Program-made: the position numbers and the translations under genes | Notes under the pieces: generated by a model | Database searches by the model: none | What the model was told of the DNA's origin: nothing | Seen by the model: the letters and a program-made list of their open reading frames with translations, nothing else | Assembly: GCF_009914755.1 (NCBI RefSeq) | Contig: NC_060925.1 | Length of the DNA stretch: 64,000 bases | Strand: one strand, 5' to 3' | Source of the DNA: the human T2T-CHM13v2.0 reference genome, Homo sapiens | Shown here: piece after piece, positions 5,269 to 30,867 of the stretch | How positions within the stretch are numbered: the first letter of the stretch is position 1 | Layout of the letters: every line of letters begins with the position of its first letter

Positions 5269-8200
5269 TCAATTCCCACCTATGAGTGAGAATATGTGGT
5301 GTTTGGTTTTTTGTTCTTGCGATAGTTTACTGAGAATCATGATTTCCATTTTCATCCATGTCCCTACAAAGGACATGAACTCGTCATTTTTTATGGCTGC
5401 ATAGTATTCCATGGTGTATATGTGCCACATTTTCTTAATCCAGTCTATCATTGTTGGACATTTGGGTTGGTTCCAAGTCTTTGCTATTGTGAATAATGCC
5501 GCAATAAACATACGTCTGCATGTGTCTTTATAGCAGCATGATTTATAGTCCTTTGGGTATATACCCAGTAATGGGATGGATGGGTCAAATGGTATTTCTA
5601 GTTCTAGATCCCTGAGGAATCACCGCACTGACTTCCACAATGGTTGAACTAGTTTACAGTCCTACCAACAGTGTAAAGGTGTTCCTATTTCTCCACATCC
5701 TCTCCAGTACCTGTTCTTTCCTGACTTTTTAATGATTGCCATTCTAACTGGTGTGAGATGGTATCTCATTGTGGTTTTGATTTGCATTTCTCTGATGGCC
5801 AGTGATGATGAGCATTTTTTCATGTGTTTTTTGGCTGCATAAATGTCATCTTTTGAGAAGTGTCTGTTCATGTCCTTCGCCCACTTTTTGATGGCGTTGT
5901 TTGTTTTTTTCTTTTAAATTTGTTTGAGTTCATTGTAGATTCTGGATATTAGCCCTTTGTCAGATGAGTAGGTTGCGAAAATTTTCTCCCATTTTGTAGG
6001 TTGCCTGTTCACTCTAATGGTAGTTTCTTTTGCTGTGCAGAAGTTCTTTAGTTTAATTAGATCCCATTTGTCAATTTTGGCTTTTGTTGCCATTGCTTTT
6101 GGTGTTTTAGACATGAAGTCCTTGCCCATGCCTGTGTCCTGAATGGTAATGCCTAGGTTTTCTTCTAGGGTTTTTATGGTTTTAGGTCTAACATGTCAGT
6201 CTTTAATCCATCTTGAATTGATTTTTGTATAAGGTGTAAGGAAGGGATCCAGTTTCAGCTTTGTACATATGGCTAGCCAGTTTTCCCAGCACCATTTATT
6301 AAATAGGGAATCCTTTCCCCATTGCTTGTTTTTCTCAGGTTTGTCAAAGATCAGATAGTTGTAGATATGCGGCGTTATTTCTGAGGGCTCTGTTCTGTTC
6401 CATTGATCTATATCTCTGTTTCGGTACCAGTACCATGCTGTTTTGGTTATTGTAGCCTTGTAGGATAGTTTGATGCCAGGTAGCGTGATGCCTCCAGCTT
6501 TGTTCTTTTGGCTTAGGATTGACTTGGTGATGTGGGCTCTTTTTTGGTTCCATATGAACTTTAAAGTAGTTTTTTCCAATTCTGTGAAGAAAGTCATTGG
6601 TAGCTTGATGGGGATGGCATTGAATCTGTAAATTACCTTGGGCAGTATGGCCATTTTCATGATATTGATTCTTCCTACCCATGAGCATGGAATATTCTTC
6701 CATTTGTTTGTATCCTCTTTTATTTCCTTGAGCAGTGGTTTGTAGTTCTCTTTGAAGAGGTCCTTCACATCCCTTGTAAGTTGGATTCCTAGGTATTTTA
6801 TTCTCTTTGAAGCAATTGTGAATGGGAGTTCACTCATGATTTGGCTTTCTGTTTGTCTGTTGTTGGTGTATAAGAAGGCTTGTGATTTTTGTACATTGAT
6901 TTTGTATCCTGAGACTTTGCTGAAGTTGCTTATCAGCTTAAGGAGATTTTGGGCTGAGACAATGGGGTTTTCTAGATATACAATCATGTCATGTGCAAAC
7001 AGGGACAATTTGACTTCCTCTTTTCCTAATTGAATACCCTTTATTTCCTTCTCCTGCCTAATTGCCCTGGCCAGAACTTCCAACACTATGTTGAATAGCA
7101 GTGGTGAGAGAGGGCATCCCTGTCTTGTGCCAGTTTTCAAAGGGAATACTTCCAGTTTTTGCCCATTCAGTATGATATTGGCTGTGGGTTTGTCATACAT
7201 AGCTCTTATTATTTTGAAATATGTCCCATCAATACCTAATTTATTGAGAGTTTTTAGCATGAAGGGTTGTTGAATTTTGTCAAAGGCTTTTTCTGCATCT
7301 ATTGAGATAATCATGTGGTTTTTGTCTTTGGCTCTGTTTATATGCTGGATTACATTTATTGATTTGAGTATATTGAACCAGCCTTGCATCCCAGGGATGA
7401 ATCCCACTTGATCATGGTGGATAAGCTTTTTGATGTGCTGCTGGATTCGTTTTGCCAGTATTTTATTGAGGATTTTTGCATGAATGTTTATCAAGGATAT
7501 TGGTCTAAAATTCTCTTTTTTGGTTGTCTCTCTGCCCGGCTTTGGTATCAGGATGATGCTGGCCTCATAAAATGAGTTAGGGAGGATTCCCTCTTTTTCT
7601 ATTGATTGGAATAGTTTCAGAAGGAATGGTACCAGTTCCTCCTTGTACCTCTAGTAGAATTCGGCTGTGAATCCATCTGGTCCTGGACTCTTTTTGGTTG
7701 GTAAGCTATTGATTATTGCCACAATTTCAGATCCTGTTATTGGTCTATTCAGAGATTCAACTTCTTCCTGGTTTAGTCTTGGGAGAGTGTATGTGTCAAG
7801 GAATTTATCCATTTCTTCTAGATTTTCTAGTTTATTTGCATAGAGGTGTTCGTAGTATTCTCTGATGGCAGTTTGTATTTCTGTGGGATCGGTGGTGATA
7901 TCCCCTTTATCATTTTTTATTGCATCTATTTGATTCTTCTCTCTTTTTTTCTTTATTAGTCTTGCTAGCAGTCTATCAATTTTGTTGATCCTTTCAAAAA
8001 AGCAGCTCCTGGATTCATTAATTTTTTGAAGGGTTTTTTGTGTCTCTATTTCCTTCAGTTCTGCTCTGATTTTAGTTATTTCTTGCCTTCTGCTAGCTTT
8101 TGAATGTGTTTGCTCTTGCTTTTCTAGTTCTTTTAATTGTGATGTTAGGGTGTCAATTTTGGATCTTTCCTGCTTTCTCTTATGGGCATTTAGTGCTATA

Positions 8201-9096
8201 AATTTCCCTCTACACACTGCTTTGAATGCGTCCCAGAGATTCTGGTATGTGGTGTCTTTGTTCTCGTTGGTTTCAAAGAACATCTTTATTTCTGCCTTCA
8301 TTTCGTTATGTACCCAGTAGTCATTCAGGAGCAGGTTGTTCAGTTTCCATGTAGTTGAGCGGTTTTGAGTGAGATTCTTAATCCTGAGTTCTAGTTTGAT
8401 TGCACTGTGGTCTGAGAGATAGTTTGTTATAATCTCTGTTCTTTTACATTTGCTGAGGAGAGCTTTACTTCCAAGTATGTGGTCAATTTTGGAATAGGTG
8501 TGGTGTGGTGCTGAAAAAAGTGTATATTCTGTTGATTTGGGGTGGAGAGTTCTGTAGATGTCTGTTAGGTCCGCTTGGTGCAGAGCTGAGTTCAATTCCT
8601 GGGTATCCTTGTTAACTTTCTGTCTTGTCGATCTGTCTAATGTTGACAGTGGGGTGTTAAAGTCTCCCATTATTATTGTGTGGGAGTCTAAGTCTCTTTG
8701 TAGGTCACTAAGGACTTGCTTTATGAATCTGGGTGCTTCTGTATTGGGTGCATATATATTTAGGATAGTTAGCTCTTCTTGTTAAATTGATCCCTTTACC
8801 ATTATGTAATGGCCTTCTTTGTCTCTTTTGATCTTTGTTGGTTTAAAGTCTGTTTTATCAGAGACTAGGATTGCAACCCCTGCCTTTTTTTGTTTTCGAT
8901 TTGCTTGGTAGATCTTCCTCCATCCTTTTATTTTGAGCCTATGTGTGTCTCTGCACGTGAGATGGGTTTCCTGAATACAGCACACTGATAGGTCTTGACT
9001 CTTTATCCAATTTGCCAGTCTGTGTCTTTTAATTGGAGCATTTAGTCCATTTACATTTAAAGTTAATATTGTTATGTGTGAATTTGATCCTGTCAT
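5269..9096 (-). pseudogene. L1-A ORF2 (endonuclease/RT), disrupted
   Basis: [19 protein letters not shown] start; stops at 8782 and 7651; further breaks near 6196, 5914 and 5662; FADD changed to FAHD. Confidence 0.95.
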
Positions 9097-9159
9097 TATG
9101 TTGTTAGCTGGTTATTTTGCTCATTAGTTGATGCAGTTTCTTCCTAGTCTTGATGGTCT

Positions 9160-28900: not shown

Positions 28901-29794
28901 AAATTTCCCTCTACACAGTGCTTTCAATGCGACCCAGAGATTCTGGTATGTTGTGTCTTTGTTCTCGTTGGTTTCAAAGAACCTCTTTATTTCTGCCTTC
29001 ATTTCGTTATGTACCCAGTAGTCATTCAGGAGCAGGTTGTTCAGTTTCCATGTAGTTGAGTGGTTTTGAGTGAGATTCTTAATCCTAAGTTGTAGTTTGA
29101 TTGCACTGTGGTCTGAGAGACAGTTTGTTATAATTTCTATTCTTTTACATTTGCTGAGGAGTGCTTTACTTCCAACTATGCGGTCAGTTTTGGAGTAGGT
29201 GTGGTGTGGTGCTGAAAAGAATGTATATTCTGTTGATTTGTGGTGGAGAGTTCTGTAGATGTCTGTTAGGTCCGCTTGGTGCAGAGCTGAGTTCAATTCC
29301 TGCGTATCCTTGTTAACTTTCTGTCTTGATCTGTCTAATGTTGACAGTGGGGTGTTAAAGTCTCCCATTATTATTGTTTGGGAGTCTAAGTCTCTTTGTA
29401 GGTCACTATGGACTTGCTTTATGAATCTGGGTGCTCCTGTATTGGGTGCATATATATTTAGGATAGTTAGCTCTTCTTGTTGAATTGATCCCTTTACCAT
29501 TATGTAATGGCCTTCTTTGTCTCTTTTGATCTTTGTTGGTTTAAAGTCTGTTGTATCAGAGACTAGGATTGCAACCCCTGCCTTTCTTTGTTTTCCATTT
29601 GCTTGGTAGATCTTCCTCCATCCCTTTATTTTGAGCCTATGTGTGTCTCTGCACGTGAGTTGGGTTTCCTGAATACAGCACACTGATAGGTCTTGACTCT
29701 GTATCCGATTTGCCAGTCTGTGTCTTTTAATTGGAGCATTTATCCCATTTACATTTAATGTTAATATTGTTATGTGTGAATTTGATCCTGTCAT
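25973..29794 (-). pseudogene. L1-B ORF2, disrupted
   Basis: Fragments 28724-29794, 28193-28513, 27102-28109, 25872-27077; FAHD. Confidence 0.95.
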
Positions 29795-29857
29795 TATGAT
29801 GTTAGCTGGTTATTTTGTTAATTAGTTGATGCAATTTCTTCCTAGCCTTGACGGTCT

Positions 29858-30867
29858 TTACAATTTGGCATGTTTTTGCAGTGGCTGGTACCAGTGGTTC
29901 CTTTCCATGTTTAGTGCTTCCTTCAGGAGCTCTTCTAGGGCAGGCCTGGTGGTGACAAAATCTCTCAGCATTTGCTTGTCTGTAACATATTTTATTTCTC
30001 CTTCACTGATGAAGCTTAGTTTGGCTGGATATGAAATTCTGGGTTGAAAATTCTTTTCTTTAAGAATGTTGAATATTGCTCCCCACTCTCTTCTGGCTTG
30101 TAGAGTTTCTGCCGAGAGATCAGCTGTTAGTCTGATGGGCTTCCCTTCGTGGGTAACCCAGCCTTTCTCTCTGGCTACCCTTAACATTTTTTCCTTCATT
30201 TCCACTTTGGTGAATCTGATAGTTATGTGTCTTGGAGTTGCTCTTCTCGAGGAGTATCTTTGTGGCGTTCTCTGTATTTCCTGAATTTGAGTGTTGGCCT
30301 GCCTTGCTAGATTGGGGAAGTTCTCCTGGATAATATCCTGCAGAGTGTTTTCCAACTTGATTCCATTCTCCCCATCACTTTCAGGTACACCAATCAGATG
30401 TAGATTTGGTCTTTTCACATAGTCCCATATTTCTTGGAGGCTTTGTTTCTTGTCATTCTTTTTTCTCTAAACTTCTCTTCTCCCTTCATTTCATTCCTTT
30501 CGTCTTCCATCACTATACCCTTTCTTCCAGTTGATCGCTCGGCTACTGAGGCTTCTGCATTCGTCACTTAGCTCTCGTGCCTTGGTTTTCAGCTCCATGA
30601 GGTCCTTTAAGGACTTCTCTGCACTGGTTATTCTAGTTATCCATTCATCTAATTTTTTTTAAAGCTTTTAACTTCTTTGCCATTGGTTTGAATTTCCTCC
30701 TGTAGCTCGGAGTAGTTTGATCGTCTGAAGCCTTCTTCTCTCAACTCGTCAAAGTCATTCTCCATCCAGCTTTGTTCCATTGCTGGTGAGGAGCTGTGTT
30801 CCTTTGGAGGAGGAGAGGTGCTCTGATTTTTAGAGTTTCCAGTTTTTCTGCTCTGTTTTTCTCCCAT
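29858..30867 (-). pseudogene. L1-B ORF1, disrupted
   Basis: MGEKQSRKTGNSKNQ... breaks near 30650; C-terminal half open 29858-30418. Confidence 0.93.

What the first reader, a model, noticed from the sequence alone, without database searches (positions are those of the whole stretch)
6263..29986. Two L1s of different subfamilies share private substitutions, including the same RT active-site knockout: a patchy gene-conversion pair
Seen: L1-A and L1-B differ in 5'UTR length, ORF1 N-terminus, flanks and TSDs, so they are independent insertions. Yet they carry the same changes at a ~20,700-bp offset: FADD->FAHD (6993/27695), LPDFK->LPGIK (6474,6476/27176,27178), KATV->KATI, NIRK->NILK (7367/28069), QTTI->QTAI (7869/28570), LIDI->LTDI (8564/29265), QDPS->QDLS (8990/29688), ORF1 KYF->KYV (9288/29986) and ICRK->ICTK (6263/26965). 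L1-C in this window keeps FADD, LPDFK and KATVT as an internal control. Subfamily-like differences persist between the shared sites (DKPEK/DKPDK, INRAK/INRTK, ITNYL/ITNCL). Known: the FADD aspartates are catalytic, so FAHD should not come from an active lineage. Inference: repeated short-tract non-allelic gene conversion between neighbouring direct repeats. The 'consensus' states are recalled, not looked up.
Basis: partly seen in the sequence, partly recalled or inferred. Interest (0 to 1): 0.85.

Follow-up and report, generated by a model that had tools for sequence, protein, structure and literature searches.

The report
Neighbouring L1 copies exchanged sequence patches
Two dead L1 retrotransposons that inserted separately 20.7 kb apart on human chromosome 1 share a set of rare mutations found together nowhere else in the genome, most likely because one copied patches of itself into the other by non-allelic gene conversion, a known process.

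Summary
L1-A and L1-B are independent full-length insertions with different target-site duplications and no flank homology. A lacks a 128-bp 5'UTR segment that B keeps, and they differ at dozens of subfamily-ladder sites.

Against 43 other L1PA copies from the same genome, A and B share 15 states seen in at most one other copy, plus FAHD. Each variant tested genome-wide is rare but recurrent: FAHD 65 versus FADD 8,562 exact 21-mers, and four others at 89-155. Only A and B carry them together.

FAHD copies are scattered along the L1PA ladder, so they are not a trans-mobilised lineage.

B is a significant mosaic. Its central ORF2 is young and A-like, at 2.3% divergence from A. Its flanks are older-type, at about 5%.

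Best explanation: patchy, short-tract non-allelic gene conversion, mainly A to B (confidence 0.75). No ape orthologues, other haplotypes or raw reads were available to confirm or date it.

This is a clean new example of a known process, so interest is modest. Neighbouring L1s also share the same rare variant about 12 times more often than different rare variants, genome-wide.

The parts
5036..11081 (-). L1-A. Full-length L1PA element, about 6.05 kb, with the short 5'UTR type (lacks the 128/129-bp segment). Its states place it on the youngest rung of the sampled ladder.
   Evidence: ORF1 is open except for one stop. ORF2 is broken into pieces of 432 and 339 aa.
5022..5035 (.). Left copy of A's 14-bp target-site duplication. 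The right copy is at 11082-11095. A T-rich tail follows it.
25740..31903 (-). L1-B. Full-length L1PA element, about 6.17 kb, of an older rung that keeps the 128-bp 5'UTR segment. It has its own target-site duplication, with an 8-bp exact core at 25726-25733 and 31904-31911.
   Evidence: ORF1 is frameshifted. ORF2 is in pieces.
30998..31125 (-). The 128-bp 5'UTR segment present in B and absent from A. A's junction is near 10306. It matches the published 129-bp ZNF93-associated deletion of L1PA3.
   Evidence: alignment. (passages of PMC7110667).
6993..6993 (-). The G-to-C change (sense strand) that turns FADD into FAHD in A. The same change is at 27695 in B. It lies in the longest identical A-B run, 6962-7098 (137 bp).
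   Evidence: Genome-wide counts are 65 versus 8,562.
5190..11010 (-). The 15 further rare states shared by A and B. In A coordinates: 5190, 6263, 6450, 6474, 6476, 6847, 7367, 7489, 7528, 7869, 8564, 8990, 9288, 10338, 11010. B positions are about +20,698 to +20,702 for 6263-9288; the two 5'UTR sites (10338, 11010) lie beyond the 128-bp segment and have a larger offset.
   Evidence: Each is seen in 0-1 of the 10-43 panel copies that cover the site.
27331..27989 (-). A-like stretch of B, corresponding to A 6629-7287 (maximum extent). By my reading, all six informative sites in it are A-like: 6847, 6862, 6892, FAHD, 7060, 7218. A-B divergence is 2.28%.
28152..28861 (-). Second A-like stretch of B, corresponding to A 7451-8160 (maximum extent). 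By my reading, ten consecutive informative sites are concordant, including 7489, 7528 and 7869. A-B divergence is 2.25%.
58005..60122 (-). L1-C. A 5'-truncated and inverted L1 (3' part 58005-59166, inverted part 59169-60122) used as the internal control. It has FADD, LPDFK and KATV, but shares ICTK.

Best explanation
L1-B, an older L1PA copy that keeps the 5'UTR segment, and L1-A, a younger L1PA3-type copy that lacks it, inserted independently 20.7 kb apart in the same orientation. Later, homologous repair or recombination between the two non-allelic copies overwrote patches of one with the other (non-allelic gene conversion).

The main direction was A to B. It carried A's own rare variants, FAHD included, together with A's young subfamily states into B, chiefly into the central 1.5-2 kb of ORF2. 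At least one small patch looks B to A: at 7552, next to 7489 and 7528, A has the older state.

Shown here:
- independent insertion;
- jointly unique rare variants;
- incompatibility with any single tree;
- a significant mosaic in B;
- halved divergence in the A-like stretches.

Inferred:
- the mechanism;
- the direction;
- that tracts were short or patchy (about 50-700 bp, at least 10 patches);
- the timing, roughly mid-life of A.

Neither element is functional, so the shared reverse-transcriptase knock-out has no consequence of its own.
For: 1. Different target-site duplications and no flank homology.
2. A and B share 15 states seen in at most one of 10-43 panel copies, plus FAHD.
3. In the 3.2-kb region with 33 well-covered copies, A-B has 9 rare shared non-CpG states. 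The mean over all 528 pairs is 0.87. Only four pairs score higher, and all four are among the under-sampled oldest copies.
4. Genome-wide, each tested variant is rare (65-155 copies versus 8,562). In the four complete lists, only A and B carry more than two of them.
5. A has the youngest-rung state and B an older one at dozens of non-CpG ladder sites that interleave with the shared rare sites.
6. Triplet permutation test with B as the child and A as one parent. Full length: P=0.0006, <0.0002, 0.012, 0.073, 0.008, 0.034 for six older second parents. ORF2 only: P<0.05 for 4 of 11 second parents. Controls: 1 of 48 tests at P<0.05.
7. A-B divergence is 2.3% in the A-like stretches against 4.7-5.3% in the old-like stretches.
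8. The published rate of 2.5e-7 per bp per generation with a 250-bp mean tract makes several tracts plausible over about 10 My (abstract of 10.1101/135152). The arithmetic is mine.
Against: 1. Identical runs around the shared sites are only marginally longer than local expectation (56 versus 46 bp, P=0.08). The longest A-B identical run (137 bp) is what a geometric model gives.
2. By my hand count, concordant and discordant informative sites form 21 runs against 23.3 expected. So there is no clustering at the finest scale, only the central block.
3. Inside that block B still has the old state at 7288, 7332 and 7450. It also has more private changes than A there (18 versus 7). Conversion must therefore have been discontinuous.
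4. There is no GC bias: by my count, 5 weak-to-strong against 6 strong-to-weak changes.
5. The ladder order rests on a panel picked largely for FAHD or for likeness to A. Only 10-14 copies cover the 5' third.
6. One assembly only. No orthologue, haplotype or read-level check was possible.
Confidence: 0.75

Rival explanations
1. A and B descend from one minor, RT-dead source lineage mobilised in trans. That lineage carried the shared variants, and the two copies landed near each other by chance.
For: FAHD occurs in 65 dispersed copies. A and B pair as sisters in the mid-region tree.
Against: - FAHD copies are intermingled with FADD copies along the whole ladder. One of the 65 is even an ancient L1 at 72% identity. 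At 65 versus 8,562 this is a background frequency.
- None of 33 other FAHD copies carries the other shared states beyond single homoplasies, and each of those is in a different copy.
- A and B differ at dozens of ladder sites and by the 128-bp 5'UTR segment. Sisterhood cannot give that.
- No third member turned up in four complete variant lists.
- By my arithmetic, chance proximity of the only two members is about 1e-5.
Confidence: 0.07
2. Assembly or polishing artefact. Bases of one copy were written into the other in T2T-CHM13.
For: Only one assembly was examined. The shared states are isolated single bases, not long identical tracts.
Against: - The copies differ by 5.6% overall (341 of 6,047 compared positions) and each sits in unique flanks. 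Long accurate reads should place them unambiguously; this is an inference, not tested.
- B's mosaic also involves subfamily-ladder states shared with many other young copies (other young copies as parent). That is not what stray polishing would give.
- Two other neighbour pairs sharing FAHD are structurally different insertions.
Confidence: 0.05
3. A local DNA duplication copied one L1 to give the other, or B was born chimeric by template switching that involved A's transcript.
For: Same orientation and 20.7 kb spacing. The region has an old tandem structure: an 84% paralogue of A's flank lies 25 kb upstream.
Against: - Each element has its own target-site duplication and tail, and the flanks are not homologous.
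- Ladder differences and the 128-bp indel exclude a simple copy.
- More than 20 switches would be needed for a chimeric birth, and the proximity would still be left to chance.
Confidence: 0.05
4. Coincident independent mutations at the same sites.
For: Each variant is recurrent genome-wide at about 1%.
Against: About 1-2 coincidences are expected against 16 observed, P about 5e-11. Nearly all are non-CpG and many are transversions. Comparable pairs in the same panel share no more than 6.
Confidence: 0.01

Closest known systems
Non-allelic (interlocus, ectopic) gene conversion between dispersed repeats. Reported for neighbouring Alu elements and for LTRs, and for LINE elements in double-strand-break repair.
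   Same: Independent insertions of different subfamilies end up as mosaics of diagnostic sites and share each other's private mutations. The copies are close together. The tract sizes inferred here fit the published 250-bp mean. Sources: section 4 of PMC6598467; abstract of 10.1101/135152; passages of PMC1920257, which cite Tremblay et al. 2000 for LINE conversion tracts as small as 13 bp.
   Different: This is a 6-kb L1 pair 20.7 kb apart. The review cites elevated rates for Alus within less than 10 kb. The pattern is very patchy, with at least 10 patches and unconverted sites inside the main block. There is no visible GC bias. I found no paper describing this pair or a genome-wide survey of neighbouring L1s. 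Those searches cover open-access text only.
L1PA3 with the 129-bp 5'UTR deletion (ZNF93 escape), versus older L1PA with the segment.
   Same: A lacks 128 bp of 5'UTR that B and most sampled full-length copies keep. The paper says the deletion arose and fixed in L1PA3 and later lineages (passages of PMC7110667).
   Different: The subfamily names are my inference. No RepeatMasker or Dfam classification was available. The exact coordinates of the published deletion were not compared.
Non-autonomous or trans-mobilised L1 lineages.
   Same: A catalytic-site change (the first aspartate of FADD to histidine) is present in many dispersed copies. That this aspartate is catalytic is my recollection and comes from no call.
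   Different: The copies do not form a clade and share no linked variants. This is recurrent decay, not a lineage.

Membership tests
Non-allelic gene conversion | Donor and acceptor are distinct loci of independent origin. | tested here: met
   Different target-site duplications, no flank homology, no recent duplicated paralogue.
Non-allelic gene conversion | Shared derived states that conflict with the family tree (four gametes). | tested here: met
   15 rare shared states plus FAHD, set against dozens of ladder sites where A is young and B is old. A-B has 9 rare shared states; comparable pairs have no more than 6.
Non-allelic gene conversion | Mosaic structure with significant breakpoints in the acceptor. 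| tested here: met
   Triplet permutation P from <0.0002 to 0.073 over six older parents. ORF2 only: 4 of 11 at P<0.05. Controls: 1 of 48. Divergence 2.3% against about 5%.
Non-allelic gene conversion | Contiguous identical tracts around the transferred variants. | tested here: inconclusive
   Islands average 56 bp against 46 bp expected, P=0.08. The longest run of 137 bp is within geometric expectation.
Non-allelic gene conversion | GC-biased transmission. | tested here: inconclusive
   5 weak-to-strong, 6 strong-to-weak and 5 neutral among 16 states. This is my count plus the FAHD change.
Non-allelic gene conversion | The pre-conversion state is visible in orthologues or other haplotypes. 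| not testable with these tools
   Only T2T-CHM13 is held. No ape or pangenome sequence was available.
LINE-1 retrotransposed insertion (both elements) | Target-site duplication, A-rich 3' tail, canonical 5' end. | tested here: met
L1PA3 short-5'UTR type (element A) | Absence of the 129-bp 5'UTR segment. | tested here: met
   128-bp gap relative to B. Among the full-length panel copies, only L039 aligns to A without this gap. Definition taken from passages of PMC7110667.
L1PA3 short-5'UTR type (element A) | Classification against curated subfamily consensus sequences. | not testable with these tools
   No Dfam or RepeatMasker library is held.
Trans-mobilised RT-dead L1 lineage | FAHD copies form a clade with linked diagnostic variants. 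| tested here: not met
   FAHD and FADD copies are intermingled in the tree. At the eight other reader-listed sites, 0-1 of 33 other FAHD copies shares the A/B state. Frequency is 65 versus 8,562.

The most novel reading that the evidence does not exclude
Sequence exchange between neighbouring L1 copies tens of kilobases apart is pervasive in the human genome and works in patches of well under a few hundred bases. If so, L1 'private' mutations, subfamily calls and age estimates in L1-dense regions are systematically contaminated, and inactivating or activating variants can pass between neighbours.

The hint: among complete lists of three rare variants, neighbours 7-50 kb apart share the same variant in 12 of 9,909 possible pairs. 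They carry different rare variants in 2 of 19,479 pairs (Fisher P=9e-5). Two of those other same-variant pairs were examined. Both are structurally different insertions, not duplications.
Probability: 0.4. Interest if true: 0.5.

Novelty: new member of a known kind. Interest (0 to 1): 0.3.

Why it matters
This is a clean, internally controlled example of two dispersed L1 copies of different subfamily exchanging sequence after insertion. The transferred states include a catalytic-site change, which shows that such a change in a fixed copy says nothing about its source lineage.

In practice, shared rare variants between nearby repeats should not be read as common descent. Divergence-based ages of L1s that have close neighbours can be wrong.

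The process itself is established for Alus, LTRs and gene duplicates, and both elements are dead. The biological consequence at this locus is therefore nil.

Tried and rejected
1. I rejected it. FAHD copies are scattered over the ladder. They lack the other shared states. They make up only 65 against 8,562.

2. Segmental or tandem duplication was rejected.

3. The identity-island test around the shared sites was not significant (P=0.08). A hand runs test on labels read gave 21 runs against 23.3 expected, so no fine-scale clustering.

4. I first read site 7099 as linked to FADD/FAHD. This is probably an ascertainment effect: the FADD copies were those that best matched A's 201-bp query, which includes 7099.

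5. Shared ORF1 disruption: none. A has one stop and B has frameshifts elsewhere.

Those pairs are known only by coordinates.

7. The listings for the QTAI and 6847 variants show only the first 100 places. Cross-checks with those two lists are therefore incomplete for later chromosomes.

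Full report
**What is there.** The window is T2T-CHM13 chr1:147,374,001-147,438,000.

- Self-comparison finds two full-length L1 elements on the minus strand. 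L1-A is at about 5036-11081 and L1-B at about 25740-31903.
- They are 95.07% identical over 5,273 bp, and 88.5% identical over 789 bp of 5'UTR.
- A is flanked by a perfect 14-bp target-site duplication. B has a different one with an 8-bp exact core. Each has a T-rich tail on the plus strand and the canonical L1 5' end.
- Outside the L1 bodies the two neighbourhoods share only short unrelated repeats.
- One kilobase of A's flank has a single other relative in the genome, an 84% paralogue 25 kb upstream. So there is no recent segmental duplication.
- The two are independent retrotranspositions.
- Both are dead. ORF2 is in pieces in each. A's ORF1 has one stop, and B's is frameshifted elsewhere.

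The differences between them (DKPEK/DKPDK, INRAK/INRTK, ITNYL/ITNCL) are also real. L1-C keeps FADD, LPDFK and KATV, though it shares ICTK.

**Comparison set.**
- The whole genome could be searched. A 201-bp query around FAHD gave 40 scored hits out of 505 candidates.
- An exact 21-mer carrying the FAHD change matched 65 places.
- After removing duplicates, and L051 because it is an ancient L1 at 72% identity, the panel was 33 other FAHD copies plus 10 FADD copies including L1-C.
- This panel is biased. It was chosen for FAHD or for likeness to A. Only 10-14 of its copies cover the 5' third.

**FAHD is not a lineage.** That reading failed.
- The FADD version of the same 21-mer matches 8,562 places, so FAHD is at 0.75%.
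- Four other A/B-shared variants give similar background counts: ICTK 89, LTDI 89, QTAI 149, and the change at 6847 155.
- In a tree of the 3.2-kb region with CpG-prone columns masked, FAHD and FADD copies are intermingled along a comb-like ladder from old to young copies.
- At the other reader-listed sites, the other FAHD copies carry the A/B state in 0-1 of the 14-31 that cover each site.
- FAHD is therefore a recurrent decay mutation, as expected for a change that should abolish reverse transcription. That this aspartate is catalytic is my recollection, not a call.

**The pair does share rare states.**
- Across the element, A and B agree on a state seen in at most one panel copy at 15 sites. 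In A coordinates these are 5190, 6263, 6450, 6474, 6476, 6847, 7367, 7489, 7528, 7869, 8564, 8990, 9288, 10338 and 11010. Where one other copy shares the state, it is a different copy each time.
- With FAHD that makes 16. Nearly all are non-CpG and many are transversions.
- In the region covered by 33 copies, A-B has 9 rare shared non-CpG states. The mean over all 528 pairs is 0.87. Only four pairs score higher (11-42), all among the oldest, under-sampled copies. The rest score 6 or less.
- The LPGIK double change, allowing one mismatch, is kept in only four places in the genome: A, B and two others. By exact 21-mers, those two others appear in none of the other lists.
- Across the four complete lists, only A and B carry more than two of the variants.
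- A has about 84 rare states, each with a genome-wide frequency of about 1-2%. Chance therefore predicts 1-2 coincidences. Sixteen gives a Poisson P of about 5e-11.

**They are nevertheless of different subfamily.**
- B carries 128 bp of 5'UTR that A lacks. Among the full-length panel copies only L039 aligns to A without this gap, and most of the others show it.
- This fits the 129-bp ZNF93-associated deletion, which arose and fixed in L1PA3 and later lineages (passages of PMC7110667).
- At 175 polarised non-CpG ladder sites, A has the derived state almost everywhere. B has the ancestral state at dozens of them.
- Calling A 'L1PA3 short type' and B 'older' is my inference. No curated subfamily library was available.

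**Incompatibility and mosaic.**
- Sites where A equals B but not the young copies coexist with sites where A equals the young copies but not B. All four combinations occur, so one tree cannot explain the data.
- B's ladder profile is blocky. It behaves as an old rung at 5496-6628 and 8161-8518, being derived only where the derived state is at about 0.63 frequency or more. It behaves as a much younger rung at 6712-8122.
- I ran a triplet permutation test with B as the child, A as one parent and an older copy as the other. Over the full length, P = 0.0006, <0.0002, 0.012, 0.073, 0.008 and 0.034 for six older second parents.
- Restricted to ORF2, to avoid uneven subfamily evolution in the UTRs and ORF1, 4 of 11 second parents give P<0.05, 3 give 0.05-0.1 and 4 give >0.3.
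- Of 48 control tests with 12 other intermediate copies as the child, 1 gives P<0.05.
- Replacing A by nine other youngest-rung copies gives P<0.05 in 7 of 9. So B's centre is young-like in general. The shared rare states are what tie the donor to A.
- A-B divergence is 2.28% and 2.25% in the two A-like stretches (6629-7287 and 7451-8160). It is 4.7% and 5.3% in the old-like stretches.
- FAHD lies in the first A-like stretch, inside the longest identical run (6962-7098).

**What does not fit neatly.**
- Identical runs around the shared sites average 56 bp against 46 bp expected locally (P=0.08). The longest run is within geometric expectation.
- By my hand count, concordant and discordant informative sites alternate about as often as chance would give (21 runs against 23.3). 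The exception is the ten-site concordant run at 7489-8071.
- Inside the central block B keeps the old state at 7288, 7332 and 7450. It also has more private changes than A there (18 versus 7).
- Conversion was therefore discontinuous. Either there were many short tracts (at least 10 patches, each bounded to about 50-700 bp), or a few long heteroduplexes were repaired in patches. I cannot tell which.
- At 7552, next to 7489 and 7528, A has the older state. This suggests one small patch in the B-to-A direction.
- A rough balance of private-mutation densities puts the exchange around the middle of A's residence time. This is a soft inference.

**Plausibility.**
- The published estimate for human gene duplicates is 2.5e-7 per bp per generation with a 250-bp mean tract (abstract of 10.1101/135152).
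- By my arithmetic, for 6 kb over roughly a million generations this gives on the order of six tracts. That is the same order as seen here.
- Non-allelic conversion among transposable elements is documented for Alus, with elevated rates within less than 10 kb, and for LTRs (section 4 of PMC6598467).
- LINE-to-LINE conversion in break repair, with tracts as small as 13 bp, is cited in passages of PMC1920257.
- Searches found no description of this pair, and no genome-wide survey of neighbouring L1s. They cover open-access text only.

**Beyond the pair.**
- In the complete lists for FAHD, ICTK and LTDI, and leaving A-B out, neighbours 7-50 kb apart share the same rare variant in 12 of 9,909 possible pairs. 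They carry different rare variants in 2 of 19,479 pairs (Fisher P=9e-5).
- Two such FAHD pairs were held as sequence, and both are structurally different insertions, not duplications.
- The chr1 pair at 147.46/147.50 Mb is identical for 98 bp around FAHD, against a mean spacing of 14 bp between differences. The chr4 pair at 35.62/35.65 Mb is identical for 56 bp, against a mean spacing of 21.5 bp.
- These two pairs share few other rare states: 3 and 0.
- The remaining pairs are known by coordinates only and could be duplications.

**Verdict.** The gene-conversion reading is supported at about 0.75 confidence. This is a new instance of a known process, so interest is modest.

Noticed in passing
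Genome-wide (G000). For example chr4:35619584/35647727, chr14:60392641/60411649, chrX:79612994/79632662, chr4:114684392/114697340, chr9:1565106/1586395, chr9:81583904/81604912.: L1 copies 11-42 kb apart share the same rare variant about 12 times more often than neighbours carry different rare variants: 12 of 9,909 pairs against 2 of 19,479. This may reflect widespread local exchange or local duplications.
   Followed up: partly
Window 58005-60122 (L1-C), and chr1:147347884 and chr1:147602686 outside the window.: L1-C is a 5'-inverted, truncated L1 that shares the ICTK change with A and B. Two more L1s, 32 kb upstream of A and 202 kb downstream of B, carry the same ICTK 21-mer. The chance expectation is about 1% per copy.
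   Followed up: no
Window 11400-12400, versus chr1:147360224-147361136 and window 13072-13435.: A's flank has an 84% paralogue 25 kb upstream and an 82% inverted partial copy nearby. This looks like the old tandem structure of the OR13Z pseudogene cluster and is older than the L1s.
   Followed up: no
Window 9157-10176 (ORF1 of A).: A's ORF1 reads through its full length except for one stop, within the sequence MNEMK*EGKF. B's ORF1 is frameshifted in its first half.
   Followed up: no
L054 and L055 (chrY:18619105 and chrY:19099921, opposite strands).: These are two near-identical L1 copies with 150 states found only in the pair. They are presumably arms of a Y palindrome.
   Followed up: no
L051 (chrX:101993942).: The FAHD 21-mer also occurs in an ancient L1 only about 72% identical to A. 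The probe is therefore not restricted to L1PA3-6.
   Followed up: no
Window 7099.: A has G here, like 8 of the 10 FADD panel copies. B and 32 of 33 other FAHD copies have C. This is probably an ascertainment effect, because the FADD copies were those best matching A's query, which includes this base.
   Followed up: partly
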